64,000 bases of DNA from Deltaproteobacteria bacterium (GTDB lineage: Bacteria; Myxococcota_A; UBA9042; DTJE01). The stretch's first letter is position 1, and each line of letters begins with the position of its first letter. The position numbers and the translations under genes are program-made. The DNA is taken from contig JAKPTZ010000001.1 of assembly GCA_029555025.1 (NCBI GenBank), positions 9,782-73,781 of the forward strand, given 5' to 3'. Positions 4,588 through 27,471 of the stretch are shown one piece after another. The notes below the pieces were generated by a model. The model saw only the letters and a program-made list of their open reading frames with translations. It ran no database searches and was not told the origin of the DNA.

Positions 4588-6297
4588 CTAGTCGTTTCGA
4601 AGACCGTCGGCCGGGCTCATCGATGCAACCGCCGAAGTCGGGTAAATCGTCGCGATCAGGGCAGCCCCGAGAGCGGCCAGGGCGACGAGAGCCACGTCAA
4701 GCGCGCTGACGCTGACGGGCAGCCGTTCGATGTAGTATTCCTGGGGCAGGGCGATGCCGGCCGTCTTGATGTACAGGCAGGTCAGCAGCCCGAGCGCCAG
4801 GCCGGAAACGGTGCCGGTAAGGCCTATCACCCAACCGATGGTGAAATAGACCGACCTGATTCCGGATGCGGTCACGCCCATGCTCCGCAGCACGGCGATG
4901 TCCCGCGTTTTTTCCATCGTCACCAGCAGCAGCGACCCGAAGACATTGAATGCCGCAACCAGTATCACCAGTCCAAGCACCAGGAACATCGCTATTCTCT
5001 CGACCATCAGGGCGGAAAACAGGGATCTGTTGGTCTGCGTGACCGTCCTGACCCGGGAGCCTGGGACGCCGTCGGCGACCCCCTGAACTTCGGCGGCGAT
5101 TCCCTCCAGTTTCTGGATGTCGGACACCATGATTGCCATCTGTTCGCGGGATGCGCCGGAAAAAAGCCGGCGGCCGCTGTCCGCGAGCACGAAGGCCGTC
5201 TTCAGGTCGAACTCGTAAAGGCCGCTCTTGATGGTTCCCACGACCCTGAAGACCGAAGTCGATGGCTGGAGTCCAAGGGGACCGACATCCCCGTCCGGGA
5301 TCACCACCGTGACTTCGTCTCCTTCAGTGACGCCAAGTCCCAGCGCAAGCTCGGAACCAAGAATGATGCCGTCCCTTACCCTGACCCCGTCGTCCGGTTC
5401 CGCAATCGGCGGAACGTCGATCTCGTCGGGCGCCGCAATTGGGGGAACGTTGAGTTCGGCGGTCTCAACGCCAACGGTGGCGGCATCTTCGGCCTTCCTG
5501 CCTTCAGACGGTTGCGATGGAGCAATCCCGTCCCTGGCCGGCGGCTGAACCGCCGCTTCACCCGGTTCCGCCGCCTGGCGCGTGGCCGGATCCGGGAACA
5601 CGAAGCCAAGGTCCCTGTCGGAAATGGTTGTTTCCGGTCTTACAAGTCCCTCAAGCGCACCCCTTGAAACGGAATTCCGAAGCCAGCGGGCCTCAAGCGC
5701 ACCGCCCGGGGTGATTCCACGGATGGTTGTTCCCGGGCCCATGTTTGAGCTCGACGCCAGCAGCGCATCGCCCTGAACGAAAGATTCGGCCATCACCACG
5801 TCGGGAATGCGCCCGATCCGGTCGGCCATCGGCTGGCAGGTCTGTCCTCCGTCGAAGTCGTCGGCCGAAGCCGCGCACCGCTCGACGGTTATGTGTGGAT
5901 TGTTGCGGATGATCTTGTCCTTGAGGTCAAGCTCGAACCCGCTCATCACGGAAAGAACAACGATAAGCGCCCATACGCCGATTGCGGTTCCGGTCATCGC
6001 GATGAAGTTCTGCGTGGCGACCGGCACCAGGCGGCGGAACCAGGATCGCTTTTCCTCGCGGAAGCCAAGCAGGAAGCGCAGTGCCAGCAGCAGCTTCCAG
6101 GAGCCGGCGCCGCCCCTTTCGGAAAAGCGCTTCAGTGCCCGGACAATCATGCCGACAAGCACGGCGGTCATGATCAGGGAAGCAAGGATAACGCCGGTAA
6201 GTTGCACCGCGGGCAGCATGTATCCAATCGCCGCCCCGGCCCTTTCCAGCAGTCCTTCCAGCATTTTGCCCCGGAGGCCGTTTCCGGCCGCTTCCAT
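4588..6297 (-). CDS. LolC/LolE-family (FtsX-like) lipoprotein-release permease, atypically long
   Basis: 569 aa. The typical LolC/E beginning LLLALRFL...IAMTGTAIGVWALIVVLSVMSGFE is present, followed by a large periplasmic domain and a C-terminal FtsX-type 3-TM bundle (FLVLGLVILVAAFNVFGSLLL...). The start is uncertain: Met codons at 6297, 6264, 6171 and 6150 all lack a strong RBS. Confidence 0.82.
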   Translation of the reverse strand: MEAAGNGLRGKMLEGLLERAGAAIGYMLPAVQLTGVILASLIMTAVLVGMIVRALKRFSERGGAGSWKLLLALRFLLGFREEKRSWFRRLVPVATQNFIAMTGTAIGVWALIVVLSVMSGFELDLKDKIIRNNPHITVERCAASADDFDGGQTCQPMADRIGRIPDVVMAESFVQGDALLASSSNMGPGTTIRGITPGGALEARWLRNSVSRGALEGLVRPETTISDRDLGFVFPDPATRQAAEPGEAAVQPPARDGIAPSQPSEGRKAEDAATVGVETAELNVPPIAAPDEIDVPPIAEPDDGVRVRDGIILGSELALGLGVTEGDEVTVVIPDGDVGPLGLQPSTSVFRVVGTIKSGLYEFDLKTAFVLADSGRRLFSGASREQMAIMVSDIQKLEGIAAEVQGVADGVPGSRVRTVTQTNRSLFSALMVERIAMFLVLGLVILVAAFNVFGSLLLVTMEKTRDIAVLRSMGVTASGIRSVYFTIGWVIGLTGTVSGLALGLLTCLYIKTAGIALPQEYYIERLPVSVSALDVALVALAALGAALIATIYPTSAVASMSPADGLRND

Positions 6298-6327
6298 CCC
6301 GTCAAAGGGACGGGGTCAACGACAAGG

Positions 6328-7881
6328 TCATTTTTCCGGGCGGAGCATCGGGAACAGTATTACGTCCCTGATGCTGTCCGAACCTGTCATCAGCATCGCA
6401 AGCCTGTCGATGCCGATGCCTTCGCCCGCGGTCGGGGGAAGCGCGTACTGAAGTGCGCGGATGTAGTCCTCGTCGTATTCCATCGTTTCCTGGTCGCCGG
6501 CCGCCTTTGCGACCATCTGCGCCCGGAAGCGTTCTTCCTGATCCTGCGGATCGTTCAGTTCCGAGAACGCATTCCCGAATTCGTTCGTCGCGACATACAG
6601 TTCGAACCGATCGACCAGGGTCGGATCGGAATCCTTGCGGCGCGAAAGCGGGGAAATGGCCGCCGGGAAGTCGGTCACGAACGTCGGCTGGATCAGGTGC
6701 TGCTCCACGGTCTCCTCGAACACCATCATGCAGATTTCCAGGGCGCAGTTGCGCTGGGCGTTTGGATCCCGGGAATCCTGGTACTTCTTCATCACGATGT
6801 CGGCGGCCTTGCGGTCGATTCGGTGTTTCAGGCCCCATTCATAGGCCGCCCGTCCGTCATGGAACGCCTGTTCCGGAGCGTCGGCATATTCACGCAGACC
6901 CTCGCACACGGGAAGCCGGCGGAACGGCTTTCCCAGGTCGATATCGTGGCCGCGGAACTGCACGACGGTCTTTCCCAGGATGTCCCTGGCCATGGACTGG
7001 AAGAGATCCTCGGTCATGTCCATCAGGTCAAGATACGTCGCATAAGCCTGATACAGTTCGATCATGGTGAATTCCGGATTGTGACGGTTGGAAAATCCCT
7101 CGTTCCGGAAGTTGCGGTTCATTTCATAGACGCGGTCGAAACCACCGACGACAAGACGCTTCAGATAAAGCTCGGGTGCGATTCGCAGGTAAAGATCGAC
7201 ATCCAGCGTGTTGTGGTGTGTGACGAACGGCCTGGCGTTTGCCCCGCCCAGGATCGGATGCATCATCGGGGTTTCGACCTCGATGAAGTCCCTCTGATCC
7301 AGATAGTCGCGGATGTACTTGATTATCCTGGTTCTGGTCCGGAAAACCTCGCGGGAGTCGTCGTTGACGATCATATCGACGTATCTCATCCGCTGACGCA
7401 TCTCGGCGTCCTGCAGGCCGTGGAACTTCTCGGGCAGAGGTCTCTGGGACTTGGAAAGAATCCTGAAAGACTTCGCCTTGACGCTCAGTTCACCGGTTCT
7501 TGTAACGAAAAGCTCGCCCTCGACGCCGACGATATCGCCGATATCGAGCAACTTGAACCTTGTGAACGACATCTCGTCAACTTCGTCCTTCTTGACGTAA
7601 ACCTGCATCGTGTCCGAGCGATCCCTGACCCGGATGAAGGCCGCCTTGCCGAAAGAGTTGACCGCCATGGCGCGGCCGGCCACGCTGACCTGGATTGCCG
7701 CGGCCTCAAGTGCTTCGTTGGAAAGCTGTTCGCCGTCGGGGCCGATGCCACGGGCGCGTACGGTCGCAATGGATTCCGTAACGCGAAAATCGTTGGGATA
7801 CGCCGCACCATCGACTTCGCGCAGTTTCTGAAGCTTTTCGAGCCTCTGATCAATCAATGTATTTTCACTGGTTTCAATCAC
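6328..7881 (-). CDS. lysS: lysine--tRNA ligase (class II)
   Basis: 517 aa with an N-terminal OB-fold region and class II motifs: FRNEG, NPEFTMIELY and GEGIGIDRLAMLMTG. Confidence 0.95.
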   Translation of the reverse strand: MIETSENTLIDQRLEKLQKLREVDGAAYPNDFRVTESIATVRARGIGPDGEQLSNEALEAAAIQVSVAGRAMAVNSFGKAAFIRVRDRSDTMQVYVKKDEVDEMSFTRFKLLDIGDIVGVEGELFVTRTGELSVKAKSFRILSKSQRPLPEKFHGLQDAEMRQRMRYVDMIVNDDSREVFRTRTRIIKYIRDYLDQRDFIEVETPMMHPILGGANARPFVTHHNTLDVDLYLRIAPELYLKRLVVGGFDRVYEMNRNFRNEGFSNRHNPEFTMIELYQAYATYLDLMDMTEDLFQSMARDILGKTVVQFRGHDIDLGKPFRRLPVCEGLREYADAPEQAFHDGRAAYEWGLKHRIDRKAADIVMKKYQDSRDPNAQRNCALEICMMVFEETVEQHLIQPTFVTDFPAAISPLSRRKDSDPTLVDRFELYVATNEFGNAFSELNDPQDQEERFRAQMVAKAAGDQETMEYDEDYIRALQYALPPTAGEGIGIDRLAMLMTGSDSIRDVILFPMLRPEK

Positions 7882-8047
7882 TTTGAATTCTCCCGCGGGA
7901 AAGCGCGCCGTACCCTACCGGTAGAAGGTATAAATGTCAATCCCGGTGCGTGTGCGCCGCGAGCGTCCGGACACGCGTCCGCGTGCGTAAGGCGTTGCCT
8001 GGTTCGCTCCATTCCCTTGAATTCGCAGAACCGGGGTTTCAAATGAA

Positions 8048-8085
8048 CCGGTGCCCGTTCAATTTGTTTTTGAGCCGGGCACCGG
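8048..8085 (-). terminator. candidate hairpin downstream of rpoD
   Basis: CCGGTGCCCG (8048-8057) can pair with CGGGCACCGG (8076-8085), giving a 10-bp stem with an 18-nt loop. On the minus strand it is followed by TTCATTTGAAA. The loop is large and the U-tract is weak. Confidence 0.3.
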
Positions 8086-8139
8086 CTGAAGGGGCAATAA
8101 GATATTCAAACCCGGGCAGGCAGTCCGTAAACCGTGGAA

Positions 8140-9582
8140 TCAGGCATCCACCAGGAAACTGCCCATGTCACGTCCCGCGGCCGGGGCACGAAGCTTCTCA
8201 AGCGCCTTGACCTCGATCTGGCGCACTCGTTCCCGGGTGAGTCCGACGGCCTCGCCGACTTCCTCCAGGGTGTGTTCGCGCTTGCAACCGATGCCGAAGC
8301 GAAGGCGGACGACCGCCTCTTCCTTCGGGGACAGGCCGGCAAGGAGCCTTCTGACGCATGCGCTGAGGTTTTCGTCGCACGTCTCCTCGAAGGGCTGGCG
8401 TGAATTTGTGTCCTCGACAACGTCCATCAGCTTGTTGTCGTCGTCGCCGATCGGTGTTTCCAGGGAAATTGCCGACAGGATCGTCTTTTCGGCCCTGAAT
8501 ACCTGTTCAGCCGTGTATCCGGTCTCGGCGGCGATTTCTTCCATCGTCGGCTCGGCCCCGTTCTGTACCCGCAGCCTGGCCCTTGCGCGTCGAACCTTGT
8601 TGACGCATTCGACGAGGTGTATCGGAACCCTGATCGTCTTGCCGTGTTCGGCCAGCGTTCGGGATATCGACTGCCGGATCCACCACGTCGCGTACGTGGA
8701 AAATTTGTGGCCAAGGCGCCAGTCGAAACGGCTGACCGCCTTCATCAGGCCGATGTTGCCTTCCTGAATCAGATCCAGCAGGGGGATCCCGCGGTTGACG
8801 TACTTCTTGGCAATCGACACGACCAGGCGCAGGTTGGCGCGGATCATCCGTGAACGTGCCTTCTCGGCGCGGGCCTGGGCCCTTGTAAGGCCGGTCACCG
8901 CCTCCCGCAGTGCGTCGCCGCGCACGCCGAGTACCATTCCGGCGGCCTTGGCCGAGGCAGCGCCCGAGATCACGCCCGCATTCAGGTCGAGTGCCCCGAA
9001 GGCGCTGGCGTCGGCCTCGTCCATCGTGTTGATGCCCCGCGCGTCGTCTGAGAGCCGGCGAAGCTGATCCTGAAGGCTGCGGAGCACAAGCCGGACGATT
9101 CCGGCGCCGAACTTGAATTCGTGATACGCGTTGTAAAGGTTCAGGGAAAGAACATATTCGTCATGAACCTCGCCACCGCGCACCGAACCGGAAATCCCGT
9201 CAATTCTGTCAGCGAAATCCTGGAGTTCCTTTGAAAGCGACGGAGTCCAGTCCTCGTGGCTGCTTTCGTCAAGCAACGAAACGTCCAGAAGGCTTACTTC
9301 GCCGGATGTCAGCCTGTGCGGGAACCCGGTAAGGTGGTTCAGGCAGAAGGGAATCCGCACCATCCACAGGAAGCTTTCCTTCTCGCCGTCCTCGATCGTT
9401 CTTGCCAGCGACTGCTCCTGCTCGCGGGAGAGCAGAGCCGTGTCGCCAATGCGGCTGAGGTAGGCCATGATCGAATTCGACGTGATTTCGGAAACCGCGT
9501 CGTCGTCCATCAGAAGGGTACGCTGTTCGCCATCCTCGATGGCCTCTTCCAGGTCAAAAACCTTGTCTTCGCTGGCGTACAT
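8140..9582 (-). CDS. rpoD: RNA polymerase sigma-70 family factor (RpoD-like, group 1/2)
   Basis: ORF 8140..9900(-). Region 1.2 reads [19 protein letters not shown]. Region 2 reads [38 protein letters not shown]...[12 protein letters not shown]. Region 4.2 reads [29 protein letters not shown] trimmed the start to MYASEDK (ATG at 9582), which has GGAGGTG upstream. Confidence 0.88.
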
Positions 9583-13012: not shown

Positions 13013-13186
13013 GCGGCTTCCCGTCCTTCCACACCCCCCTTTCCCGGACGCTGTTTCTGGATAAAAATCCTGTCATTCTGGTAACAACCGTTGTCGTGCT
13101 TGATTTCCTTATTCCTGCGTGATTTCATTGACAGGTTGTGCCTTTATAGCCGGTTCTGTTCACAAACCTGAATGTGGAGGAGTCCT

Positions 13187-15565: not shown

Positions 15566-15574
15566 GAGGCTGCG

Positions 15575-16883: not shown

Positions 16884-19800
16884 GTGAGAACTGGAACCGC
16901 ATTTGTCATTGCAGTCATTTTCGCGTTGCTTTCCGGTTGCGGCGGCTCGAACCCCGCGTCCGACAACGGACTTCCGGAAGATACCGCATCGGATTACATC
17001 ATCGGGTCGGATCTGAACGGACAGGATGTCCGCCTGGACACGATTTCGCCCGACGGCACCGGTCTGGACGGGGAAGAATCTGATTCTTCACGGGATCAGG
17101 GTCTGCCGCCGGAACCTTGTCGGCCCGGCGAATCGTGCGACGACCATGATCCGTGCACGATCGACGACCTGTGCGACGACGACGAGGAGTGCGCCGGGAC
17201 GCCGGTCGAGGACTGCGACGACGGAATCGAATGCACTTTCGACGAATGCACGACCGAAACCGACTGTTCGCATGAATTGAAGCCGGGATGGTGTTTCGTG
17301 GCGGGCAAGTGCATCGAGGACGGTCAGTCCGATCCTGCCGTGATTTGCAGATCCTGCCAGACGGCACTGAAGACCGATGAACTCCTTCCCGACGACAACA
17401 TGACCTGTGACGACGGCGATGCCTGCACCGTCAACGACAGGTGTCATGAAGGTTTCTGCATTGCCGACGCCCGCGACTGCGGCGATCGCAACTCATGCAC
17501 GGCCGACATGTGCGTTAACGGTTCCTGCGTCAACGAGGCCGTCGAAGGCATGTGCAACGACGAAGACCTTTGTACTGAAAACGACCTCTGTGTCGATGGT
17601 CAGTGCGTCGGTTCACCCATCGGTTGCTGGGATCAGAATCCCTGCACCCAGGATGCCTGTCATCCCGATTTCGGATGTGTCCACGAGTTCCTGGACATAC
17701 CGTGCGACGACGGGAACATCTGCAGCGTCGGGGATCGCTGCTGGCTTGGCAATTGCCTTTCCGGCGACGGAATGAAGGATTGCGACGACGGCAATCAGTG
17801 CACCGACGACGGCTGCGTGCCGGTTCGTGAAGGCGGTTGCGTCCACATCCCGAATACCGCGCCGTGCGACGATGGCGACCCGTGCACGCTGGAAGACAAG
17901 TGCAAGGCCAGCTCGTGCGATCCAGGCAAGGGCGTCCTTGACTGCGACGATGGGAATCCCTGCACGACGGACAGGTGCGAGAAGGGTACCGGATGTGTTC
18001 ATGACAACAACACCGTGCCTTGCGATGACGAGGATCCGTGCACCCTTGACGACGTCTGCGGCGGTGGCGTCTGCAATCCCGGCGTGACGCAGCTTGCCTG
18101 CGATGACGGCAACGAGTGCACCAGCGACTTCTGTGAGGCCGGGATTGGCTGCGTGTATGAAAACAACCTGAATATCTGCGACGACGACAACGTGTGCACG
18201 AACGTATCGACGTGCATGGACGGCGTGTGCATCGGCGAGTCCGCGGTCGATTGCGGCGATGATGATTCCTGCACCCTTGATTACTGCCTGCCGACCGGTG
18301 ACGCGCCCGGCTGCTATCACAAGCCGCTTCCCGAATGCAGGCCGCAGATTGTCATCGACTATCCACCCCGCGCATCCACTCTGAGCAAGAAGACCGGCGA
18401 CCAGATTGTGGTTCGCGGGCATATCGAGTATCCGCCGAACGCAATCCAGGAAGACGGTTATCCGAGCCCGGAAATGGCCATGAGCAAGGTCGTCGTCAAC
18501 GGCCTTGACGTCTGGGTCGATCCCAGGACGAAGCCGTGGTCATTCCAGAGCACGATGACGCTGCAGCAGGGGATGAATCCCATTGTTGCGTACGGCCAGG
18601 CCAATGCGGTGCCGGCATACAAGGATTACGTCGTCCAGTCTCTTTACTACTCGGACTCGTGGTTCCCGGTCAGTCACGCCAATCCGGCCGCCGGGATGGT
18701 CAGCGACGGCGTGAAGATATTCCTGGGCAAGACGGTCTGGGACGACAACAACACGGCGACCGCCGACGACATCGCGACCCTGTTGACCAACATCCTGAAA
18801 ACACTCAGCCTTTCCACGCTTATCAAGAATCCGGTCACCAAGGGCGAGTTCGGCTGGTGCGATTACAAGGTCAACCTGAAGAACATGAAATACGGGACGC
18901 CGTCGATTGACCTGATTCCCGACTGGGGAAAGATAAAGGTCAAGGTCGTGATCCCCAGGTTCAGCGTGGATATCGACGTCCCGATAAGCGGTTTCGCGTG
19001 TCCCGATTTCAGCGGGGATGCCTCGGCGACTTCGATAACGATTAATGCCGACTTGAACCTTGCAATCGATCCGCAGGGAAAGCCGCTTGCCACCATTTCC
19101 AATCCGGATGTCGTGGTTTCCGGGCTTGATGTCGATGTCGATGGCATCTGGGGCTTCCTTTTCAACTGGATCATCGACTTCTTCGAAGACAACTTTGCCG
19201 ACATGATCGAGGACGAGTTCGAGACCCAGCTAGCCGGCCAGCTTTCCGAACTGGTCAGGGGCGCCGTGGCCGATCTGGCCCTTGACCCGGAATTCCCGGT
19301 TCCCGAACTTCTGCCGGGAATGACGCCGGTCACGCTCCAGATGAAGAGCAAGTTTTCCACGATATCCATCACGCCCGAAGGCAGCGATATCGGTCTTGCC
19401 GCGGTCGTCCTGCCGGATGCCGCCCAGACGCCGCCGGCGGTGCTGCTCGGTTCTATCGGTCGCGGCGCCTGCCTGGGAACCGATCCCGGGATTCCCGCGT
19501 TCCCCCACACATACGAAATGGGGCTGATGGCCAAGGATGATTTCCTTAACGAGGCCCTTTACGCAATCTGGGCGTCGAATGGACTGAAGATTCCGGTCGG
19601 GCCCGAAATGCTCGGCGATTTTGACCTTTCCGAGTTCGGGATTTCCAATCTCAGCCTGAATGTCGATTTCCAGTTGCCGCCGTTGATATCGGACTGCAAT
19701 CTGGAACACAAGATGTTCTTCGAGGCCGGGGATATCAGGGTGAACGCGGGCATGAAGCTGCTCGGCTCCCAGGTTGACATGGTGATGTACGCCAGCCTGA

Positions 19801-20132
19801 TCGCCGAGGCCCGCATTGTCCTGGTGCCGGGCGCGACCGGAACAGAGGTCGGCATTCAGATCGAGACGCCGCTTTTCATCGATATTGAAGTCGCCCAGAT
19901 TGCCGGGGGGCTTGTCGGTGCCGAAGACACGATCAGCTCGCTGATCCGGACGGTCGCCCTTCCGATGGTTCTTGATCTTCTGTCCGGGGACACGCTGGCT
20001 TCGTTCCAGCTTCCAAGCATCGACTTGAGCTCGCTGGCCGAGGGATTCCCGGCCGGGTCGGTGATCGAAATCGACATGAAGGAAGTCAATCGTTCCAGGG
20101 GCGCGACCATAGTTCTTGGCAATGTGAAGTAA
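16884..20132 (+). CDS. Cys-rich repeat lipoprotein with C-terminal BPI/LBP/CETP-like (TULIP) two-lobed region, paralog 1
   Basis: GTG start with AGGAGG 6 nt upstream and a lipobox (ALLSGC). An acidic linker is followed by about 14 units of the type CDDGNxCTxDxC....GC.H / CDDGDPCTxxDxC..G.C at roughly 17115-18350. A short beta-sandwich-like segment follows. The last 477 aa (18699-20129) show BPI-like landmarks (see findings). Confidence 0.85.
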   Translation: MRTGTAFVIAVIFALLSGCGGSNPASDNGLPEDTASDYIIGSDLNGQDVRLDTISPDGTGLDGEESDSSRDQGLPPEPCRPGESCDDHDPCTIDDLCDDDEECAGTPVEDCDDGIECTFDECTTETDCSHELKPGWCFVAGKCIEDGQSDPAVICRSCQTALKTDELLPDDNMTCDDGDACTVNDRCHEGFCIADARDCGDRNSCTADMCVNGSCVNEAVEGMCNDEDLCTENDLCVDGQCVGSPIGCWDQNPCTQDACHPDFGCVHEFLDIPCDDGNICSVGDRCWLGNCLSGDGMKDCDDGNQCTDDGCVPVREGGCVHIPNTAPCDDGDPCTLEDKCKASSCDPGKGVLDCDDGNPCTTDRCEKGTGCVHDNNTVPCDDEDPCTLDDVCGGGVCNPGVTQLACDDGNECTSDFCEAGIGCVYENNLNICDDDNVCTNVSTCMDGVCIGESAVDCGDDDSCTLDYCLPTGDAPGCYHKPLPECRPQIVIDYPPRASTLSKKTGDQIVVRGHIEYPPNAIQEDGYPSPEMAMSKVVVNGLDVWVDPRTKPWSFQSTMTLQQGMNPIVAYGQANAVPAYKDYVVQSLYYSDSWFPVSHANPAAGMVSDGVKIFLGKTVWDDNNTATADDIATLLTNILKTLSLSTLIKNPVTKGEFGWCDYKVNLKNMKYGTPSIDLIPDWGKIKVKVVIPRFSVDIDVPISGFACPDFSGDASATSITINADLNLAIDPQGKPLATISNPDVVVSGLDVDVDGIWGFLFNWIIDFFEDNFADMIEDEFETQLAGQLSELVRGAVADLALDPEFPVPELLPGMTPVTLQMKSKFSTISITPEGSDIGLAAVVLPDAAQTPPAVLLGSIGRGACLGTDPGIPAFPHTYEMGLMAKDDFLNEALYAIWASNGLKIPVGPEMLGDFDLSEFGISNLSLNVDFQLPPLISDCNLEHKMFFEAGDIRVNAGMKLLGSQVDMVMYASLIAEARIVLVPGATGTEVGIQIETPLFIDIEVAQIAGGLVGAEDTISSLIRTVALPMVLDLLSGDTLASFQLPSIDLSSLAEGFPAGSVIEIDMKEVNRSRGATIVLGNVK

Positions 20133-20174
20133 CGGCTTCGACGTCCGAAGTCCTGCCGAATGGAGAAACGACCG

Positions 20175-23100
20175 ATGAGAAGAGTGCCGTTTGGTTCAAT
20201 GCTGGCCGCGATGATCCTTGCGATTCCGGCAATCACGGGTTGTGGCGGAACCGTCGATCCCGGACAGGATCTGGTTCAGCCGGAAGACGTGTCCGGGAAC
20301 GACGTCATTTCGCCCGAGGATGTTGAAGACATTTTCGATGCAGGGCGTGACGCGGCCGTGCCGGATGTCGGAACGGATCAGGGCCAGGAAACAGGTGGGC
20401 CCGATATCGCGCTGCCCGATTGTCCTTCCGGCCAGGCGTGCGATGACGGCGATTCGTGCACCATCAACGATCAGTGCCAGTCCGACGGCGAGACGTGCGT
20501 CGGAATCGTCGTGGAATCTTGCAGCGACAACCTGGCCTGCACTTATGATTCGTGTGTTTCCGAAACCGAGTGCACCAACGAGCTGAAGCCGGGATGGTGC
20601 CTGGTTGAAGGCGAATGCATCGAGGATGGCGAGTTCTCGGCGGCACAACCCTGCATGTCCTGCATCACCGCCCTGGGAACCGATCGTCTTTTCCCGGACG
20701 ACGCCGGCGTCTGCGACGACGGGAACGCCTGCACGACCGGCGACGCATGTCATGCGGGCGCCTGTGTCGGGGTCGCCATGGACTGCGACGACGGCAATCC
20801 GTGCACGACGGATGTGTGTGACAACGGAACCTGTCTTAACAACGCGACGGACGGTGCCGCGTGCGACGACGGCAATCGCTGCACTTTCGACGACATCTGC
20901 ACGATGAACGTCTGCGGCGGAACTGCGGTCGAGTGCGATGACGGTAATCTTTGCACCGACGATTCATGCGACCCGGAGTTCGGATGCATGAATATCAACA
21001 ACGAAGCCGGTTGCGACGACGGCAACCTGTGCACCGTCGGCGATACCTGTTTCCTTGGCGAGTGCGCGTCGGGAACGGAACCGCTTTTCTGCGACGATTC
21101 AAACATCTGTACCGATGACGGTTGCGTGCCGTCGAAGGGTTGCGTGGCGATACCGAATACGAGCCCGTGCGACGACGGTGATCCCTGTACCGTCAACGAC
21201 TTCTGCCAGGCTTCGGAATGCCTGGCCGGCAAGTTGCCCCTGGATTGCGACGACAACAACCTTTGCACCGATGAGGTCTGCACGAAAGGCATCGGCTGCG
21301 AGTACACGAACAACGAACTCGAGTGTGACGACAACAACGAGTGCACGGTTGGCGACACGTGCGGCGGCGGAACCTGCCGGCCCGGCGTCGGCGAACTCTT
21401 CTGCGATGACGGCAACGTCTGCACCGACGACGCCTGCGTGATTGGCGAAGGCTGCGTCAACGTCCCGAACAATGACGAGTGCGAAGACAACAACGTCTGC
21501 ACCGGCATGGGAACATGCGTTGACGGCTCGTGTCAGCGGGGATCTTACAACTACGACTGCGACGATGGTTTGCAGTGCACCGCCGATTCCTGCCACCCGG
21601 TTGACGGATGCCAGCACAGCCTGGTCAACAGCGCCGACTGCCGTCCACAGGCCGTCATCGACTTCCCGGAAAGGGCCGCCACGCTCAACGGCGCCAGGGA
21701 CATCACGGTAACCGGCCATGTCGATCTGGGACTTGACGGAATCCCGGTTCCGTTCGTGACCATTAACGGTAACCAGTACGCCCTTGGACTCGATGGAAGG
21801 TTTTCAGCTCCCAGAACTTCCGACCAGGGATTCAACGGCCTGGTAGTCGAGGTCGAAGACATCAACGGCATGAAGGATCGCGTGGTTCAGTCGTACTACT
21901 ACTCGACCGAATGGTTCCCGTTCAGTGAAACCGACCCGTCGGTTTCGAATGTAAACGACGGTCTTGTGCTTTTCATTGGCCCCGAGGTCTGGGACGACAA
22001 CGACACCTCCACTTACGACGACGTCGCAACGATTATCTCGACTTTCGTCGATGACATCGATCTGATGTCGATGATTTCGAACCCGGTCGAGGAGGGTGAC
22101 GACGGCTTCGTGTGCGGCGATCATCGAATCAACATCAACAGCATCACCTTCGGAACGATTGCGGTTGATCTGACGCCGGTAAACGGCGGGCTTTACATGA
22201 AGGTGACAATCCCGAACATCAAGATCGGCATCAGTGGAAAGTACTGCCACGTCAACTTCTCGGGCACCGCGAACGCAAGCAGCATCGTGGTCAACTCGAC
22301 CCTGAACATCTCGATCGATCCGGCCACCGGCAAGCCGGTAATCGCCATGACTGGAACCAATTCCAGCGTCAACGGGTTGTCAATCAATATCAATAACTTC
22401 CCGGGCTTCCTTGAAGACATCCTGATGTTCTTCCTTGAAGACACGCTGACCGGCATGATCGAGGACACCATCGAGGATCAGATTGCTGGGCTGATTCCGG
22501 ATCTTCAGGAAGCACTCGAGGGGCTGGCGATCGACCAGACCTTCGAGATTCCAGCGCTTTTCGACGGCGGTTCGCCGATGACGGTTACCCTTGATTCCGG
22601 TCTTTCGTCCATCGTCTTCACGCCGGCCGGCGGCACGCTGGGAATGAAGGCCGCCTTCAGTGCCCCGAAGGGAACCACGCACGAGAAGCTGGGCTCGTTG
22701 GGGCGTGCCAATTGCCTGCTTGGCGGTCTTGAGGCGAAGCCGGTGTTCCCGGTCGGTCCCAGTTCGCCCCAGCTTGAGCTTGGATTGAAGGACGATCTGC
22801 TGAACGAACTGGTATTCGCCCTTTACTGGGGTGGCGCACTCAATCTGCCGATTCCGGCGGAAATGCTTGGCGATTCCCTGGGTGACTACGGCATCACCGA
22901 CATGGTCGCGAACATCGATTTCCTGTTGCCGCCCGTCCTTTCGGCCTGCAATTCGCAGGGCATCCTGAAGGTTGCCGTCGGCGACGTGATGCTGGACGCG
23001 ACCTTGAAACTGTTCGGAGCTCCGCTGACCATGAAGATTTATGTCAGCCTGATGGCCGGGGCCAACATCATAGCCCGTCAGACCGAGACCGGTTCGACGA

Positions 23101-23390
23101 TGCTCGGCGTTGCGGTCAACTATCCGGACTTCATCGACATGGAGATCGCGAGTCTGGTCGGGAACCTTTCCGGGGCCGAGGACACGATCAAGGGGCTGGT
23201 CATGGACACGCTGCTGCCAAGCCTGCTCGGCACGCTTGACGGCGTCACGCCGCTGGTCGAATTCGAGATCCCGGCAATCGACATGTCTTCGTTCATCGAC
23301 GGCGTGCCGGCCGGTTCCGAGTTGAGCATCATGGTAAGGGAAGTTCTGCGCGCCGGGGCGTACACCGTCGCGTCGGGCACGGTTCAGTAG
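20175..23390 (+). CDS. Cys-rich repeat lipoprotein with C-terminal BPI/LBP/CETP-like region, paralog 2
   Basis: ORF 20160..23390. The ATG at 20175 has GGAGA 8 nt upstream (MRRVPFGSMLAAMILAIPAITGC lipobox). The architecture matches paralog 1 and stays collinear through the C-terminal region (21951-23387). Confidence 0.85.
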   Translation: MRRVPFGSMLAAMILAIPAITGCGGTVDPGQDLVQPEDVSGNDVISPEDVEDIFDAGRDAAVPDVGTDQGQETGGPDIALPDCPSGQACDDGDSCTINDQCQSDGETCVGIVVESCSDNLACTYDSCVSETECTNELKPGWCLVEGECIEDGEFSAAQPCMSCITALGTDRLFPDDAGVCDDGNACTTGDACHAGACVGVAMDCDDGNPCTTDVCDNGTCLNNATDGAACDDGNRCTFDDICTMNVCGGTAVECDDGNLCTDDSCDPEFGCMNINNEAGCDDGNLCTVGDTCFLGECASGTEPLFCDDSNICTDDGCVPSKGCVAIPNTSPCDDGDPCTVNDFCQASECLAGKLPLDCDDNNLCTDEVCTKGIGCEYTNNELECDDNNECTVGDTCGGGTCRPGVGELFCDDGNVCTDDACVIGEGCVNVPNNDECEDNNVCTGMGTCVDGSCQRGSYNYDCDDGLQCTADSCHPVDGCQHSLVNSADCRPQAVIDFPERAATLNGARDITVTGHVDLGLDGIPVPFVTINGNQYALGLDGRFSAPRTSDQGFNGLVVEVEDINGMKDRVVQSYYYSTEWFPFSETDPSVSNVNDGLVLFIGPEVWDDNDTSTYDDVATIISTFVDDIDLMSMISNPVEEGDDGFVCGDHRININSITFGTIAVDLTPVNGGLYMKVTIPNIKIGISGKYCHVNFSGTANASSIVVNSTLNISIDPATGKPVIAMTGTNSSVNGLSININNFPGFLEDILMFFLEDTLTGMIEDTIEDQIAGLIPDLQEALEGLAIDQTFEIPALFDGGSPMTVTLDSGLSSIVFTPAGGTLGMKAAFSAPKGTTHEKLGSLGRANCLLGGLEAKPVFPVGPSSPQLELGLKDDLLNELVFALYWGGALNLPIPAEMLGDSLGDYGITDMVANIDFLLPPVLSACNSQGILKVAVGDVMLDATLKLFGAPLTMKIYVSLMAGANIIARQTETGSTMLGVAVNYPDFIDMEIASLVGNLSGAEDTIKGLVMDTLLPSLLGTLDGVTPLVEFEIPAIDMSSFIDGVPAGSELSIMVREVLRAGAYTVASGTVQ

Positions 23391-23427
23391 TTTTCGGGGC
23401 CTTTCCGGGCCCTTGCGGAGGATATAG

Positions 23428-25581
23428 ATGCGCAAGCTGCTTTTTGCTTCAATGATCGGATTCGGGATGCTCGTGGCCTGTGGACCCGGTGAATCGGGAA
23501 CCGACGAGGGCACCGGCGTTGACGTCGGCTACGAGGATGTCAATCAGCCTGTCGATAACGGCCAGGATGTCCAGCCGGACACGGCTCGTCCCGACCTGAA
23601 CCAGCCGGATGATGGTCCGGTCGATGTCGGCCAGGATCACGGGATTGATACGAATCCCGGCGATTCTGTGGTTCTTCCGGACAACGGCGACTGCCTGGCC
23701 GGCGATCCCTGTGACGACGGCAATCCGTGCACCTGGGGCGAGACATGCGGCGAGTCAGGCGAATGTGGCGGCGGCACGCACTACACCTGCGACGATGGCC
23801 GGGCCTGCACCGATGACACATGTGACGGACTTGGAAACTGCCTGTTCGTCATGAAGGCCGGAACCTGCCTGATCAACGGAATCTGCCGCGACAAAGACGC
23901 CGCGGATCCCGAGGATCCCTGTTTCGTCTGCAAGCCGGGCACAAGTGTCAGCGAATGGTCAAAGGCACCCGACGAAACCGCGTGCGACCCGACGGTAACT
24001 CTGGGACGTTGCGAGGATTCGCCCGGCGGCACCTGCGTGGACGGCGTATGCGTTGCTTCGACGATTGTGCCGAAGGGGTGCGATGACAGTGATCCGTGCA
24101 CCGAGGATTCCTGCAATCCGGCGGTCGGCTGCATCAATACGCCTGTCAGCAGCGGGGAATGCGTTCTTGAAGACAAGTGCAAGCCAGGCTACTGCTTCCA
24201 GGGCGTGTGCATCGTTCCCGAAGACAGTTCATGCGATGACGGCAACTCATGCACCCTGGATTCCTGTGACGACGTCAAGGGATGCCAGCACAGCCCGATC
24301 GAGGAAGCCGCCTGCGACGACGGCGACGAGTGCACGTTCCAGGATTCCTGTTTCGAGGGCGTGTGCAACGGCCGGCCCCAGAACTGCGACGATGGCAACG
24401 TGTGTACCGAGGACGGTTGCGACAGCATCACCGGATGCTGGCACGACCTGGCAACCAATCCCTGCTGCATCGGCGGCGTTTCCGTTTGCGACGACAATAA
24501 TCCGTGCACCAATGACGATTGCGACCCCGATACGTTCGAGTGCTTCCACAACGACAACACGGCCGCGTGCAGCGACGGGAATCCGTGCACCGTCGGCGAT
24601 TCCTGCGACGAAGGTGATTGCTTCGGCTCGGCGAAGAACTGTTCGGACGGAAATCAGTGCACTTCCGATTACTGTGACGGCGGTCTCTGCCTGCATGACA
24701 TCCTTTCCGGGACTGCCTGTGATGATGGTCGCGATTGCTCGGTCAACGATCACTGCGAGGCCGGCCTCTGCGTCGCCGACGAGTCCGGCTGTGTCTGTCA
24801 GCCGACCTTCTATCCGGCGGTGTCCAAGTTCGTAACGATGGCGATTTCGACCAACGGAAAGACCGGTTCCGGCCTCGATCTCGATATGAAGCCGACGACC
24901 TGCGCGCCCGCGGAGGATTGCTGCTGTGGCATCGATAACGCTCTTGGTCCCGTGGCCGGCATGAAGGCGGCTCAGGACGGCATCAAGGACGCCATGGCCG
25001 AGGGCAGCATCACGCTTCTGTTTGAACACCGGGAGATCAAGACCGACGGGACGCCTTATACCTTGGCGTTCTATTCCGGTGAACTGGCCCCGACAAACGA
25101 ATCCTGCAACTTCCTGACCCAGGATTGCGACTATGTTGTCGAGCCGATGATGATCACCGACGAGTGTCTGCCGCTGGTCACTTTGAACAATGCGAAGATC
25201 GTCGGCAACAAGTTGACCGCGGGCGGGCTTGATTACGTGTTCCCGTTCGACCTTCCGCTGCTTGAAGGAATCAATCTTCACGTGGATCTGTATTTCACCA
25301 GGGTGGAAGCCAACGTAACCGTGTCCGGCGGGCGTGTCACGTCCATGCAGGGCATCCTGGGCGGCGCGATTCCGAAGCAGCAGATTTCGGACGCGGTGCA
25401 GGCCGTCCCGGACGAGACATGGGCCGACCTGCCGGTTGACAAGGCAACCGTTATGATGCTGCTTGACCTGGTCGTTATTCCCGATATCGATGGCGACAAG
25501 GACGGCATCATGGAATCGGCGTCAATCGGGATTCAGTTCACTGCTATTCCAGGCGAGATCGTCGGCCGCAAGGTTGACTGA
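23428..25581 (+). CDS. Cys-rich repeat lipoprotein, paralog 3, with a different uncharacterised C-terminal domain
   Basis: ATG with GGAGGA 5 nt upstream and a lipobox (GMLVAC). It has the same acidic linker and CDDGNxCTxDxC repeat array (about 23690-24790). The C-terminal region of about 260 aa (CVCQPTFYP...EDCCCGIDNALGP...) is unrelated to the BPI-like region of paralogs 1 and 2. Confidence 0.85.
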   Translation: MRKLLFASMIGFGMLVACGPGESGTDEGTGVDVGYEDVNQPVDNGQDVQPDTARPDLNQPDDGPVDVGQDHGIDTNPGDSVVLPDNGDCLAGDPCDDGNPCTWGETCGESGECGGGTHYTCDDGRACTDDTCDGLGNCLFVMKAGTCLINGICRDKDAADPEDPCFVCKPGTSVSEWSKAPDETACDPTVTLGRCEDSPGGTCVDGVCVASTIVPKGCDDSDPCTEDSCNPAVGCINTPVSSGECVLEDKCKPGYCFQGVCIVPEDSSCDDGNSCTLDSCDDVKGCQHSPIEEAACDDGDECTFQDSCFEGVCNGRPQNCDDGNVCTEDGCDSITGCWHDLATNPCCIGGVSVCDDNNPCTNDDCDPDTFECFHNDNTAACSDGNPCTVGDSCDEGDCFGSAKNCSDGNQCTSDYCDGGLCLHDILSGTACDDGRDCSVNDHCEAGLCVADESGCVCQPTFYPAVSKFVTMAISTNGKTGSGLDLDMKPTTCAPAEDCCCGIDNALGPVAGMKAAQDGIKDAMAEGSITLLFEHREIKTDGTPYTLAFYSGELAPTNESCNFLTQDCDYVVEPMMITDECLPLVTLNNAKIVGNKLTAGGLDYVFPFDLPLLEGINLHVDLYFTRVEANVTVSGGRVTSMQGILGGAIPKQQISDAVQAVPDETWADLPVDKATVMMLLDLVVIPDIDGDKDGIMESASIGIQFTAIPGEIVGRKVD

Positions 25582-25596
25582 CCGATCGTTTCCACC

Positions 25597-26214
25597 CTAG
25601 AAGTCGCAGCCGCGTTCTTCAAACCTGGCGGATGCCTGAAGCACCTTTTCGACGTAATCGACGTTCTGGGGAAGCTCCAGATTCTGTCTGGCCCTGCCCG
25701 GCATTCCGTGGCCGGCGTTATACCCGGAAAGCCCCAGGTAGATGGAATCCTTGTAGTATTTCAGGAAGGCCTTGATTACACGGGCGCCGCAACGCAGGTT
25801 TTCGTATGGATCGTTAAGCGGCCCGCAACGTTTTGCCCTGGCCGTTGCCGGCATGCACTGGGTCAGGCCGACGGCGCCGACAGGGGATTTCACGTCGTTC
25901 CTGAAGTTGGATTCCACTCGAACGATGCCGACAAGCAGCGACGTCTCGATGTCGAATTCGCTGGCGACCCTGGTTATCAGGGGAAGGAGCTCCCGGCAGC
26001 GTTCGGTCGCCGCGCTTGTGGCCGACCCTGTCCGCGAGGCGCCCGAATTCTTGACGGTCGGTCGTTTGGAATTCAGCGATGCCGTCGGGACGTGCCTTTT
26101 CCCATGCCCGGATGCGGCGGCAACCCGGGTGCCGGAAGTTCCGGCGTGGCAGCCCGCACCAAGGCCAAGAAGGGCGATAAGAATGATCGACGGCAGTGTG
26201 ATTGCCCGTTTCAT
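25597..26214 (-). CDS. lytic transglycosylase (SLT domain) lipoprotein
   Basis: This is the C-terminal 205 aa of ORF 25597..27216(-). It has a lipobox (LLGLGAGC) and the SLT motifs VRVESNF, GLTQCMP and YNAG. The start is the ATG at 26214 (MKRAITL). The longer upstream ORF overlaps rlmI and is rejected. Confidence 0.85.
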   Translation of the reverse strand: MKRAITLPSIILIALLGLGAGCHAGTSGTRVAAASGHGKRHVPTASLNSKRPTVKNSGASRTGSATSAATERCRELLPLITRVASEFDIETSLLVGIVRVESNFRNDVKSPVGAVGLTQCMPATARAKRCGPLNDPYENLRCGARVIKAFLKYYKDSIYLGLSGYNAGHGMPGRARQNLELPQNVDYVEKVLQASARFEERGCDF

Positions 26215-26280
26215 GGTGATAATCGTAAGATCGCGCCGGGCGGAAAGCCAAGTTAAGGCCAATTTCAGGGGTGCCATCCA

Positions 26281-27471
26281 ATGTCGAACCCATCCGTGAG
26301 TGTTGCCAGGGGAAGGGCGCGTCCTTTCTGGTTTGGCTGTCCGGTCGTTTTTTCTGGATCGGTGTCGCGCGTGCAGGGAGAACCCGTTCCCGGGGATTTC
26401 GTCGATGTCCTTGATGATATGGGCCAGTTGATCGGTCGCGGGTTTTTCAATCCCGGATCTTCGTACAGGGTTCGGATTGTTGCCCGTCCCGGGGAGCCCG
26501 ACACAGCCGCTGCCATCATCGCGCGAAGGATCGCCGATGCGTTCCGGGTCAGGGCGGCTTTTGGCATTCCTTCGGATCGCACCGATGTTTACAGGCTTTT
26601 CAACAGTGAAGGCGATGGACTGTCGGGCATGACCATCGATGTCTTTTCGCGAACCGTGGTCGTGATGGAATCCGCCCTCTGGGTGTCGCGGTTCAGGCGG
26701 CTGATTGTCGAATGTCTTGAAGCTGGACTCGGGCCTGGAATCAGCGTGCTGTTCCGGGTGGTCGGCGGCATCCGCGGACTGGAATGCATCATGGCCGAAG
26801 ACGAAGGGACGGCCCCCGTGGAACCGATAAAGGTGGTTGAGAACGGGTTGGGATTCCTGACAAGGCCGGGTGCCGGCCAGAAGACCGGATTTTATGCCGA
26901 CCAACGGGAAAACAGGCTCGCCATCAGGGATCTCTGTGTTGACGCGGACGTCCTTGACCTGTTCTGTTTCAGCGGTGGGTTTGCCTTGAATGCCGCATCT
27001 GCCGGCGCGAAAAAGATTACTGCGGTCGATTCTTCCGCAGATGCAATTGCGGCTGCCGCGGCCAACGCCGCCATCAACGGCCTCGACGACCGGATTTCCT
27101 TTGTCGAGCAGGACGCACTTAAGTTCCTTGCCGGCGCTCGGGAACACGACGTGGTCGTCTGCGACCCGCCAAAGCTGGCATCGGGAAGGTCGTCCATGGA
27201 GTCCGGCCTTAAACATTACGCCCGTCTTAATGTCGCCGCGATGAAGGCTTTGAGGGACGGCGGGATTCTCGTGACATGTTCATGCTCGTCAGTCGTTCGT
27301 CGCGACATGTTCCTTGAGATGCTTCGGGACGCAGCCGTTTCGGCCGGTCGGGTGATTTCGGTACTTGACGTCAGGGGTGCCGGTCGGGATCACCCGATCA
27401 ATCCTTCCTGGACAGAGGGCGAGTACCTCAAGGTGGCGACGGTCGTGGTAAGGGATCCTTCGCGGGCTTGA
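26281..27471 (+). CDS. rlmI: SAM-dependent 23S rRNA m5C methyltransferase, RlmI-like (PUA + class I MTase)
   Basis: 396 aa. The PUA-like N-terminus reads GDFVDVLDDMGQLIGRGFFNP. It also has GFYADQRENR, the SAM-binding motif VLDLFCFSGGFAL and the catalytic-region motif VVCDPPK. Confidence 0.8.
   Translation: MSNPSVSVARGRARPFWFGCPVVFSGSVSRVQGEPVPGDFVDVLDDMGQLIGRGFFNPGSSYRVRIVARPGEPDTAAAIIARRIADAFRVRAAFGIPSDRTDVYRLFNSEGDGLSGMTIDVFSRTVVVMESALWVSRFRRLIVECLEAGLGPGISVLFRVVGGIRGLECIMAEDEGTAPVEPIKVVENGLGFLTRPGAGQKTGFYADQRENRLAIRDLCVDADVLDLFCFSGGFALNAASAGAKKITAVDSSADAIAAAAANAAINGLDDRISFVEQDALKFLAGAREHDVVVCDPPKLASGRSSMESGLKHYARLNVAAMKALRDGGILVTCSCSSVVRRDMFLEMLRDAAVSAGRVISVLDVRGAGRDHPINPSWTEGEYLKVATVVVRDPSRA

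What the first reader, a model, noticed from the sequence alone, without database searches (positions are those of the whole stretch)
21951..23387. Paralog 2 carries the same BPI-like region with conserved Cys pairs, so the module is under selection
Paralog 2 is collinear with paralog 1 through the whole C-terminal region. VNDGLVLFIGPEVWDDN matches VSDGVKIFLGKTVWDDN. FSGTANASSIVVNSTLNISIDPATGKPVIAMTG matches FSGDASATSITINADLNLAIDPQGKPLATISN. LLNELVFALYWGGALNLPIP matches FLNEALYAIWASNGLKIPVG. DFIDMEIASLVGNLSGAEDTIKGLVMDTLLP matches LFIDIEVAQIAGGLVGAEDTISSLIRTVALP. Four Cys positions are conserved between the two: GWC/FVC, FAC/KYC, GAC/ANC and SDC/SAC. That is consistent with one disulfide per lobe. 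Surface residues have diverged substantially, so this is an old duplication, possibly with different ligand specificities.
Basis: seen in the sequence. Interest (0 to 1): 0.7.

Follow-up and report, generated by a model that had tools for sequence, protein, structure and literature searches.

The report
BPI-like lipid-binding lipoprotein paralog pair
Two neighbouring genes of an uncultured myxobacterium each encode a membrane-anchored protein whose far end is predicted to fold like the human lipid-carrying and antibacterial protein BPI; the copies are old, intact and conserved, and belong to a large bacterial family that nobody has studied.

Summary
Paralog 2 (20160/20175..23390) is collinear with paralog 1 (16884..20132), 43% identical with no frameshifts, and all four quoted peptide matches and four shared Cys are present.

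The BPI reading also holds. With a 101-sequence alignment, AlphaFold gives pLDDT 92. Foldseek's top hits are full-length BPI (E 5.5e-20), LBP and CETP. The family profile hits LBP and BPI by sequence (2e-13, 3e-10).

The duplication is old: 13 genomes carry both copies, in separate clades. Close orthologs give dN/dS of 0.09-0.13 for both copies. Cys residues appear and disappear in pairs. The C-lobe pair is invariant (171-172 of 172). The N-lobe pair is optional, and BPI's own disulfide is absent.

These proteins differ from BPI. They are lipoproteins with a Cys/Asp-rich repeat stalk and an Ig-like domain, and they are very acidic (pI about 4). A third stalk protein with an unknown head domain always accompanies them.

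The most likely function is lipid binding or transfer at the cell envelope or surface, closest to Bdellovibrio TipA. This is a new variant of a known kind, annotated only as "hypothetical protein". Different ligand specificities were not shown. I found only faster evolution of paralog 2's N-lobe.

The parts
16884..20132 (+). Paralog 1 (P1, 1082 aa). Lipoprotein with lipobox LSGC (Cys19), an acidic linker, 13 Cys/Asp-rich repeats, an Ig-like domain and a BPI-like double-TULIP module at 18630..20129.
20160..23390 (+). Paralog 2 (P2). The ORF runs from 20160 (1076 aa). The public call and the likely true start are ATG 20175 (1071 aa).
20175..20243 (+). P2 signal peptide with lipobox ITGC. The lipidated Cys codon is at 20241..20243.
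   Evidence: read from the sequence; lipobox assignment is by pattern only
20415..21641 (+). P2 Cys/Asp-rich repeat stalk: 12 CxDxxxCxxxDxC-like units, 62 Cys, net charge -77. Matches Pfam Dicty_CTDC.
21642..21881 (+). P2 Ig-like beta-sandwich (weak Glucodextran_B match) directly before the TULIP module. It is conserved across the family, with G519, G557 and N559 nearly invariant.
21882..22529 (+). P2 N-lobe TULIP barrel (N-terminal strand, helix A, long meander strands, 39-residue helix B). Carries the Cys652/Cys696 pair at the predicted distal tip.
   Evidence: Cys placement inferred from the secondary-structure string
22530..22790 (+). P2 central sheet strands and inter-lobe linker. Carries the invariant Cys852 (22713..22715).
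22791..23387 (+). P2 C-lobe TULIP barrel and the C-terminal strands that return to the central sheet. Carries the invariant Cys930 (22947..22949).
23428..25581 (+). P3 (717 aa). Lipoprotein with the same leader and repeat stalk but a different, unknown 267-aa head domain ('P3C', 24778..25578). It is the constant gene neighbour of the BPI-like genes.

Best explanation
P2, like P1, is an exported lipoprotein whose distal end is a real homolog of the BPI/LBP/CETP double-TULIP. The module has two helix-wrapped beta-barrels joined by a central sheet, and this fold encloses lipid acyl chains. The module sits on an Ig-like domain and a roughly 410-residue disulfide-rich, strongly acidic repeat stalk. 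The stalk is tethered to a membrane through the N-terminal lipid anchor. The most likely function is binding and handing over lipids, or other large hydrophobic molecules, at the cell envelope or surface. It probably acts together with P1 and the co-encoded P3 protein, by analogy with Bdellovibrio TipA/TipB. One disulfide staples the inter-lobe linker to the C-lobe in every family member. A second disulfide staples the N-lobe tip in most members, including P1 and P2. Shown here: paralogy, homology, predicted fold, purifying selection, old duplication, conserved gene trio. Inferred: lipid binding, disulfide bonding, operon, cooperation with P3, cellular location.
For: Homology. Pfam PF01273 gives E 1.8e-5 for P2 and 7e-4 for P1, and 24 of 58 family members match it. 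The family profile hits LBP at 2.1e-13 and BPI at 2.6e-10. Single members also hit other TULIP families (LmeA, JHBP, Grp7 allergen). Fold. AlphaFold gives pLDDT 92 and pTM 0.87. Foldseek gives BPI 1ewf at E 5.5e-20 (TM 0.55/0.59), followed by LBP, CETP, OrfX3 and P47. Export. All three proteins have lipoboxes, and the 62-67 Cys per protein imply an oxidising compartment. Selection. Omega is 0.09-0.13 between close orthologs and 0.04-0.17 per segment. Disulfides. The C-lobe Cys pair is present in 171-172 of 172 modules. N-lobe Cys occur as (1,1) in 109 modules, (0,0) in 29 and (0,2) in 33, with almost no singletons; Fisher p = 1.5e-14. System. P1-P2-P3 occur as a trio in 13 genomes, and a single BPI-like gene plus P3C in others. 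In L032 a P3C protein flanks the BPI-like gene on both sides. Gene gaps are 27 and 37 nt with no terminator-like site between the genes. Precedent. TipA is a secreted bacterial BPI-like double-TULIP that holds lipids and binds bilayers, and is opened by its operon partner TipB. [quoted passage not shown]
Against: There is no experimental data for any family member, and all are annotated as hypothetical protein. Neither P1 nor P2 reaches Pfam's gathering score for PF01273 (24.9 and 19.7 against 28.8 bits), and nothing matches the C-terminal family PF02886. The location (periplasm-facing or surface-exposed) is unknown. P3C has no detectable similarity to TipB or to anything else, so the TipA/TipB analogy rests on gene neighbourhood alone.
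Confidence: 0.6

Rival explanations
1. The protein is a BPI/LBP-style weapon against other Gram-negative bacteria. The N-lobe would bind lipopolysaccharide of prey cells and permeabilise their outer membrane.
For: The best sequence and fold matches are BPI and LBP. The host is a member of Myxococcota, a phylum with many predators. TipA of the predator Bdellovibrio destabilises bilayers.
Against: From general knowledge, BPI and LBP bind LPS through a strongly cationic N-terminal tip. Here the N-lobe has net charge -26 and the whole protein -136, with pI about 4. The protein is tethered by a lipid anchor rather than released. The genes lie in a housekeeping neighbourhood conserved across lineages. 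The MAG's lifestyle is unknown.
Confidence: 0.1
2. The protein is a housekeeping periplasmic lipid shuttle or bridge between inner and outer membrane. It would be anchored in one membrane, with the stalk spanning the periplasm.
For: It is a lipoprotein with Gly at +2. The trio sits in a conserved core-genome neighbourhood next to an SLT transglycosylase, FtsY and a methyltransferase, with BamA and a Lol-like permease in the window. From the literature, other bacterial TULIPs such as YceB are periplasmic lipoproteins (PMC5507252).
Against: The family is confined to a subset of lineages and its N-terminal regions vary greatly, which is unusual for an essential envelope machine. A 400-aa repeat stalk plus an Ig domain plus a double-TULIP is probably longer than a periplasm is wide; this is an inference and was not measured.
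Confidence: 0.2
3. The protein is a surface adhesin or matrix protein, or a carrier of a small hydrophobic signal, as Takeout and JHBP are. Bulk lipid handling would not be its role.
For: Dicty_CTDC repeats and Ig-like domains are typical of extracellular matrix and adhesion proteins. The TULIP superfamily includes hormone and odorant carriers.
Against: The conserved core of the family is the full two-barrel module, not the stalk. The best matches are the two-barrel lipid carriers, not the single-barrel small-ligand binders.
Confidence: 0.1

Closest known systems
Eukaryotic BPI / LBP / CETP / PLTP family (Pfam PF01273 + PF02886; PDB 1ewf, 1bp1, 4m4d, 2obd)
   Same: A module of about 500 residues with two pseudo-symmetric barrels, a central sheet and an inter-lobe linker. 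These are the best Foldseek matches over the full length. Sequence similarity to the N-terminal domain is detectable at profile level. The proteins are extracytoplasmic.
   Different: Identity is only 13-15%. The hits lie below Pfam's gathering score, with no PF02886 match. BPI's Cys135-Cys175 disulfide is absent and is replaced by family-specific pairs. The protein is strongly acidic rather than cationic. It is lipid-anchored and carries a repeat stalk and an Ig-like domain. It is bacterial.
TipA (Bd2538) with its adapter TipB, Bdellovibrio bacteriovorus (bioRxiv 10.1101/2025.09.09.675085)
   Same: A bacterial, exported BPI-like double-TULIP encoded beside a partner gene. That paper also shows other bacterial double-TULIPs fused to beta-rich domains, including a beta-sandwich packed on the N-lobe. 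Here an Ig-like beta-sandwich always precedes the module.
   Different: TipA is soluble, forms a homodimer through a hairpin insert, and has no stalk and no lipid anchor. Its partner is a small C2-like sandwich, whereas here the partner is a 717-aa stalk lipoprotein with an unrelated 267-aa head. No direct sequence or structure comparison with TipA was possible, because it is absent from both PDB copies searched.
Clostridial OrfX1/OrfX2/OrfX3 and P47
   Same: Bacterial multi-TULIP proteins. They are the next-best structural matches after the BPI group (E 1.5e-11 to 9e-5).
   Different: Global superposition is much poorer (TM 0.17-0.30). They belong to a toxin-cluster context in Firmicutes, and no sequence-level match was found.
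YceB/DUF1439, DUF4403, DUF2140, DUF2993/LmeA (bacterial TULIPs of Levine 2019, PMC6791001)
   Same: Bacterial envelope TULIP-fold proteins. YceB is a lipoprotein. One family member weakly hits the LmeA Pfam model.
   Different: According to that paper's abstract, the three previously identified bacterial TULIP families (P47, OrfX2, YceB) are too distant from eukaryotic TULIPs to specify a common origin. The present family is linked to BPI and LBP by ordinary profile HMM searches. YceB matches only marginally in fold (E 0.06).

Membership tests
BPI/LBP/CETP double-TULIP superfamily (fold level) | Two tandem barrels, each with helix A, a long antiparallel sheet and a long helix B, joined by a central sheet | tested here: met
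   The AlphaFold model (pLDDT 92) shows this order of elements. The best full-length Foldseek hits are BPI, LBP and CETP at E 5.5e-20 to 1.2e-17. This is a prediction, not a solved structure.
BPI/LBP/CETP double-TULIP superfamily (fold level) | Continuous apolar lipid-binding cavity or pockets | not testable with these tools
   Model coordinates are not exposed. The only indirect indication is a positive GRAVY of 0.36 for an exported domain.
Pfam LBP_BPI_CETP N-terminal domain (PF01273) | Score at or above the gathering threshold of 28.8 bits | tested here: not met
   P2 scores 24.9 bits (E 1.8e-5) and P1 scores 19.7 bits (E 7e-4). Of 58 relatives, 24 match at E <= 0.01, the best at 3e-7. The family profile hits LBP at 2.1e-13 and BPI at 2.6e-10. 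Homology is therefore supported, but curated membership is not reached.
Pfam LBP_BPI_CETP C-terminal domain (PF02886) | Detectable match in the second barrel | tested here: not met
   No hit at E <= 1 for P1 or P2, and none among 58 relatives at E <= 0.01. Only a 4-bit stretch aligns with LBP's C-terminal domain.
BPI/LBP proper | Conserved N-domain disulfide (human BPI Cys135-Cys175) | tested here: not met
   In the phmmer alignment, the BPI segments TITCSSCSS and SQVCEKV face Cys-free P2 sequence. P2's Cys residues lie elsewhere.
BPI/LBP proper | Cationic N-terminal tip that binds LPS | tested here: not met
   The P2 N-lobe has 5 K+R against 31 D+E, and pI is about 4. That this feature defines BPI and LBP is from general knowledge.
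TipA-like bacterial double-TULIP with adapter | Double-TULIP gene paired with a conserved partner gene | tested here: met
   A P3C-domain gene lies next to the BPI-like gene in every stalk-type locus that extends far enough (18 loci plus the window), and on both sides in L032.
TipA-like bacterial double-TULIP with adapter | Sequence or structure similarity to TipA and TipB; hairpin-mediated dimer | not testable with these tools
   TipA and TipB are in neither PDB copy. P3C matches nothing known.
Bacterial lipoprotein | Signal peptide ending in a lipobox with an invariant Cys | tested here: met
   LSGC in P1, ITGC in P2 and LVAC in P3, each following a hydrophobic stretch. This is a pattern reading only; no dedicated predictor was available.

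The most novel reading that the evidence does not exclude
The P1-P2-P3 trio may be a previously unrecognised surface apparatus of Myxococcota. Two diverged BPI-like lipid tubes and a new head domain (P3C) would each be held on a disulfide-rich stalk, and together they would extract or deliver lipids outside the cell. P3C would be a membrane- or target-binding module that is reused beside contractile injection systems in other bacteria. This family would also be the closest bacterial sequence relative of the eukaryotic BPI/LBP/CETP proteins, which bears on where that innate-immunity and lipoprotein-metabolism family came from.
Probability: 0.15. Interest if true: 0.75.

Novelty: new variant of a known kind. 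Interest (0 to 1): 0.5.

Why it matters
Only one bacterial BPI-like double-TULIP, Bdellovibrio TipA, has been characterised, in a recent preprint. This family is large: 1511 clusters at 50% identity. It is entirely unannotated. Ordinary profile searches link it to human BPI and LBP, which the literature says was not possible for the three bacterial TULIP families identified before Levine 2019 (P47, OrfX2, YceB). It comes with a distinct architecture (lipid anchor, repeat stalk, Ig-like domain), a retained ancient duplicate and a constant partner of unknown fold. This provides a concrete gene set for asking how bacteria move lipids outside the cytoplasm, and whether the eukaryotic BPI family has a bacterial origin.

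Tried and rejected
- The word-indexed homolog search found only 2 relatives and made the family look rare. The exhaustive HMM search showed 1511.
- AlphaFold with 4 sequences gave an unusable model (pLDDT 50), so I did not search with it.
- dN/dS between the two paralogs is saturated (pS 0.58-0.67, dS > 1, omega 0.4-0.5). I rejected it as evidence and used close orthologs instead.
- The search for clade-diagnostic residues that might mark different specificities found only one, a trivial I/L.
- P3C compared with the TULIP module by hhalign gave no relation (probability 0.2%). P3C against the PDB and Pfam gave nothing.
- NCBIfam had no family for any of the three proteins.
- The promoter scan found nothing, and the terminator-like sites were fewer than in shuffles.
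- A link to the upstream fadB-fadA genes (lipid uptake feeding beta-oxidation) was rejected as a general feature. That adjacency exists only in the closest relatives.
- Long antisense ORFs over the region (for example 22380..23513, minus strand) are treated as by-products of 59% GC, given omega of about 0.1 in the plus frame.
Full report
**What is at the site**

Three plus-strand ORFs lie head to tail. P1 is at 16884..20132 (1082 aa), P2 at 20160..23390 (1076 aa) and P3 at 23428..25581 (717 aa). The gaps between them are 27 and 37 nt, and no terminator-like site lies between the genes. The public gene call for P2 starts at ATG 20175 (1071 aa), and a GGAG lies 10 nt upstream of it. Residue numbers in this report count from 20160. 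All three proteins begin with a hydrophobic leader that ends in a lipobox: LSGC in P1, ITGC in P2 and LVAC in P3.

**Check of the observation**

- BLASTP of P1 against P2 gives one collinear alignment over the full length: 468/1097 identical, E = 0. Identity is about 40% over the last 500 residues.
- The four Cys pairs are aligned as stated: GWC/FVC, FAC/KYC, GAC/ANC and SDC/SAC. Their codons were verified.
- P2 is an intact ORF, and the similarity is not low-complexity.

**Is it BPI-like?**

- Pfam gives sub-threshold hits to the LBP/BPI/CETP N-terminal domain in both paralogs: P2 at E 1.8e-5 (24.9 bits) and P1 at E 7e-4 (19.7 bits), against a cutoff of 28.8 bits.
- phmmer against PDB sequences puts LBP and BPI first, but only weakly (E 0.02-0.05).
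- The word-indexed protein search found just two relatives. The exhaustive profile search found 1511 cluster representatives at E <= 1e-3 and 372 at E <= 1e-30. The module lies at the C-terminus in nearly every full-length hit.
- A profile of 101 members hits LBP at 2.1e-13 and BPI at 2.6e-10.
- Of 58 members scanned, 24 match PF01273. Single members touch other TULIP families: LmeA, JHBP and Grp7 allergen.
- AlphaFold with 4 sequences failed (pLDDT 50). With 101 sequences it gave pLDDT 92 and pTM 0.87. The order of elements is that of BPI: N-terminal strand, helix A, four long meander strands, a 39-residue helix B, central strands, linker, then a second helix A, sheet and helix B, and finally C-terminal strands.
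- Foldseek against the PDB returns BPI 1ewf first (E 5.5e-20, TM 0.55/0.59 over about 520 columns). 1bp1, LBP and CETP follow, then OrfX3 and P47, and the single-barrel TULIPs come far behind.
- I conclude that the module is a real, distant homolog of the BPI family and a double-TULIP. It does not meet Pfam's curated thresholds, and PF02886 is not detected.

**Selection and age of the duplication**

- Paralog-versus-paralog dN/dS is saturated and uninformative.
- A scan of one genome per species found 28 related loci. All are in uncultured MAGs, most labelled Myxococcota, Myxococcales or Deltaproteobacteria. The nearest orthologs of P2 are 71-77% identical.
- Thirteen genomes, including this one, carry both copies followed by a P3 ortholog. 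Others carry one copy plus P3.
- In a neighbour-joining tree the upstream and downstream copies form two separate clades covering the same genomes. The duplication therefore predates their divergence. Single-copy loci L030 and L022 branch outside both clades. The tree has no bootstrap support.
- Close ortholog pairs with unsaturated dS give omega 0.09-0.13 for both copies. Each structural segment gives 0.04-0.17.
- The module is therefore under purifying selection in both paralogs.

**Cysteines**

Across 172 near-complete modules, the two C-lobe positions (P2 C852 and C930) are Cys in 171 and 172 sequences. The N-lobe shows three states:

| N-lobe state | Modules |
|---|---|
| One Cys at each of the two sites, as in P1 and P2 | 109 |
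| No Cys at either site | 29 |
| Two Cys around the second site | 33 |
| One Cys at the first site only | 1 |

Fisher p for co-occurrence of the two sites is 1.5e-14. Gain and loss in pairs is the expected signature of disulfides.

From the strand register I infer two placements. C652 lies just before strand 1, and C696 lies in the strand 2/3 turn. They face each other at the distal tip of the N-lobe. C852 lies in the inter-lobe linker, next to C930 in the proximal strand 1'/2' turn. Distances could not be measured.

BPI's own Cys135-Cys175 positions are not Cys in P2. The disulfides are therefore family-specific.

**How it differs from BPI**

- P1 and P2 are extremely acidic: pI about 4, net charge -127 and -136, and -26 for the P2 N-lobe alone. 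This argues against a BPI-style cationic LPS-binding or bactericidal tip.
- Ahead of the module lie an acidic linker and 12-13 CxDxxxCxxxDxC-like repeats (Dicty_CTDC, 62 Cys).
- An Ig-like beta-sandwich comes next. It is conserved in the family: Glucodextran_B matches 32 of 58 members, and three of its residues are nearly invariant.
- N-terminal regions vary widely across the family, and the repeat stalk is present in only about half of the members.

**The partner, P3**

- P3 shares the leader and the stalk with P1 and P2.
- It ends in a 267-aa domain (P3C) that has no Pfam, PDB or profile similarity to anything, including the TULIP module.
- P3C follows the BPI-like gene in every stalk-type locus that extends far enough downstream.
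- In L032, P3C proteins flank a single BPI-like gene on both sides.
- The wider neighbourhood of SLT transglycosylase, methyltransferase and FtsY is conserved across lineages. The fadB-fadA adjacency exists only in the closest relatives.
- The window otherwise carries core genes: BamA, a Lol-like permease, RpoD, ribonucleotide reductase and PFOR.

**Divergence between the paralogs**

Only one site is diagnostic between the two clades, a trivial I/L. In the 13 genomes that carry both copies, pairwise identity by region is as follows:

| Region | P1-type copies | P2-type copies |
|---|---|---|
| N-lobe sheet | 62% | 41% |
| N-lobe helix B | 64% | 44% |
| Central region | 51% | 57% |
| C-lobe | 57% | 57% |

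The N-lobe barrel of P2-type copies is thus the fast-evolving part. This is compatible with a diverging ligand or partner surface but does not prove one.

**Comparison with what is known**

Among bacterial BPI-like double-TULIPs, only TipA of Bdellovibrio has been characterised. It holds lipids, binds bilayers, and is opened by its operon partner TipB. The same preprint shows predicted bacterial double-TULIPs fused to extra domains, including a beta-sandwich packed on the N-lobe.

The bacterial TULIPs identified earlier (YceB, P47, OrfX2) were judged too distant from the eukaryotic families to specify a common origin (PMC6791001). Every public copy of P1, P2, P3 and the relatives I looked up is named "hypothetical protein".

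**Verdict**

Two qualifications apply: the "different ligand specificities" remain untested, and the disulfides are inferred rather than seen.

The most likely function is lipid binding or transfer by a stalk-mounted double-TULIP at the envelope or cell surface, working with P1 and P3 (confidence about 0.6). The fold and homology are much more certain than the function.

This is a new variant of a known kind and is of moderate interest. The unknown P3C partner and the detectable link to eukaryotic BPI/LBP are the features most worth following up.

Noticed in passing
window 24778-25578 (P3 C-terminal domain); L034 7001-8266, L035 2846-4111, L036 5541-6911: The unknown P3C head domain also occurs without a stalk (P0200 at 421 aa, P0206 at 456 aa; 35-39% identical). 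In two lineages it sits immediately upstream of contractile-injection-system clusters (a small ORF, Pvc16_N, phage sheath, T4 gp19 tube). It contains a conserved DIDGDGDG motif and nine Cys.
   Followed up: partly
L032 6110-13465: In a more distant genome the arrangement is P3C protein, BPI-like protein, P3C protein, followed by pilMNO-like genes and a secretin gene (PF00263). The partner, rather than the TULIP gene, is duplicated there.
   Followed up: partly
window 21882-22529 compared with 18630-19280: The N-lobe barrel of P2-type copies evolves much faster than that of P1-type copies across 13 genomes (41-44% against 62-64% pairwise identity). All other regions evolve at equal rates.
   Followed up: yes
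window 20160-20177: The longest ORF for P2 starts at ATG 20160. The exact public protein starts at ATG 20175, which has a GGAG 10 nt upstream. The 20160 version is absent from the 15-billion-protein collection.
   Followed up: yes
L001 5177-8499: The P1 ortholog in this metagenome contig is split into two overlapping ORFs (5177..6772 and 6271..8499). This is either a frameshift or an assembly error inside the repeat region. Gene callers also truncate the P2 ortholog there to 592 aa, and they place spurious minus-strand genes over its repeat region.
   Followed up: no
window 13172-16738: fadB-like and fadA-like beta-oxidation genes lie directly upstream of P1. The adjacency is kept only in the closest relatives (L005-L007, L031), so it is probably not functionally tied to the trio.
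   Followed up: yes
P0011 (2236 aa, ENA metagenome): One family member matches the module profile in two separate stretches. It appears to carry two double-TULIP modules in one chain.
   Followed up: no
window 21642-21881: The Ig-like domain before the module has nearly invariant residues (G519, G557, N559) across 58 diverse members. It is therefore part of the conserved core and may pack on the N-lobe, as in the planctomycete example of the TipA paper.
   Followed up: partly
window 25597-27216 (-) and 26281-27471 (+): The long minus-strand ORF overlaps the methyltransferase gene. Only its C-terminal part (about 25597-26400) matches an SLT lytic transglycosylase, so the real gene is much shorter than the ORF.
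   Followed up: partly
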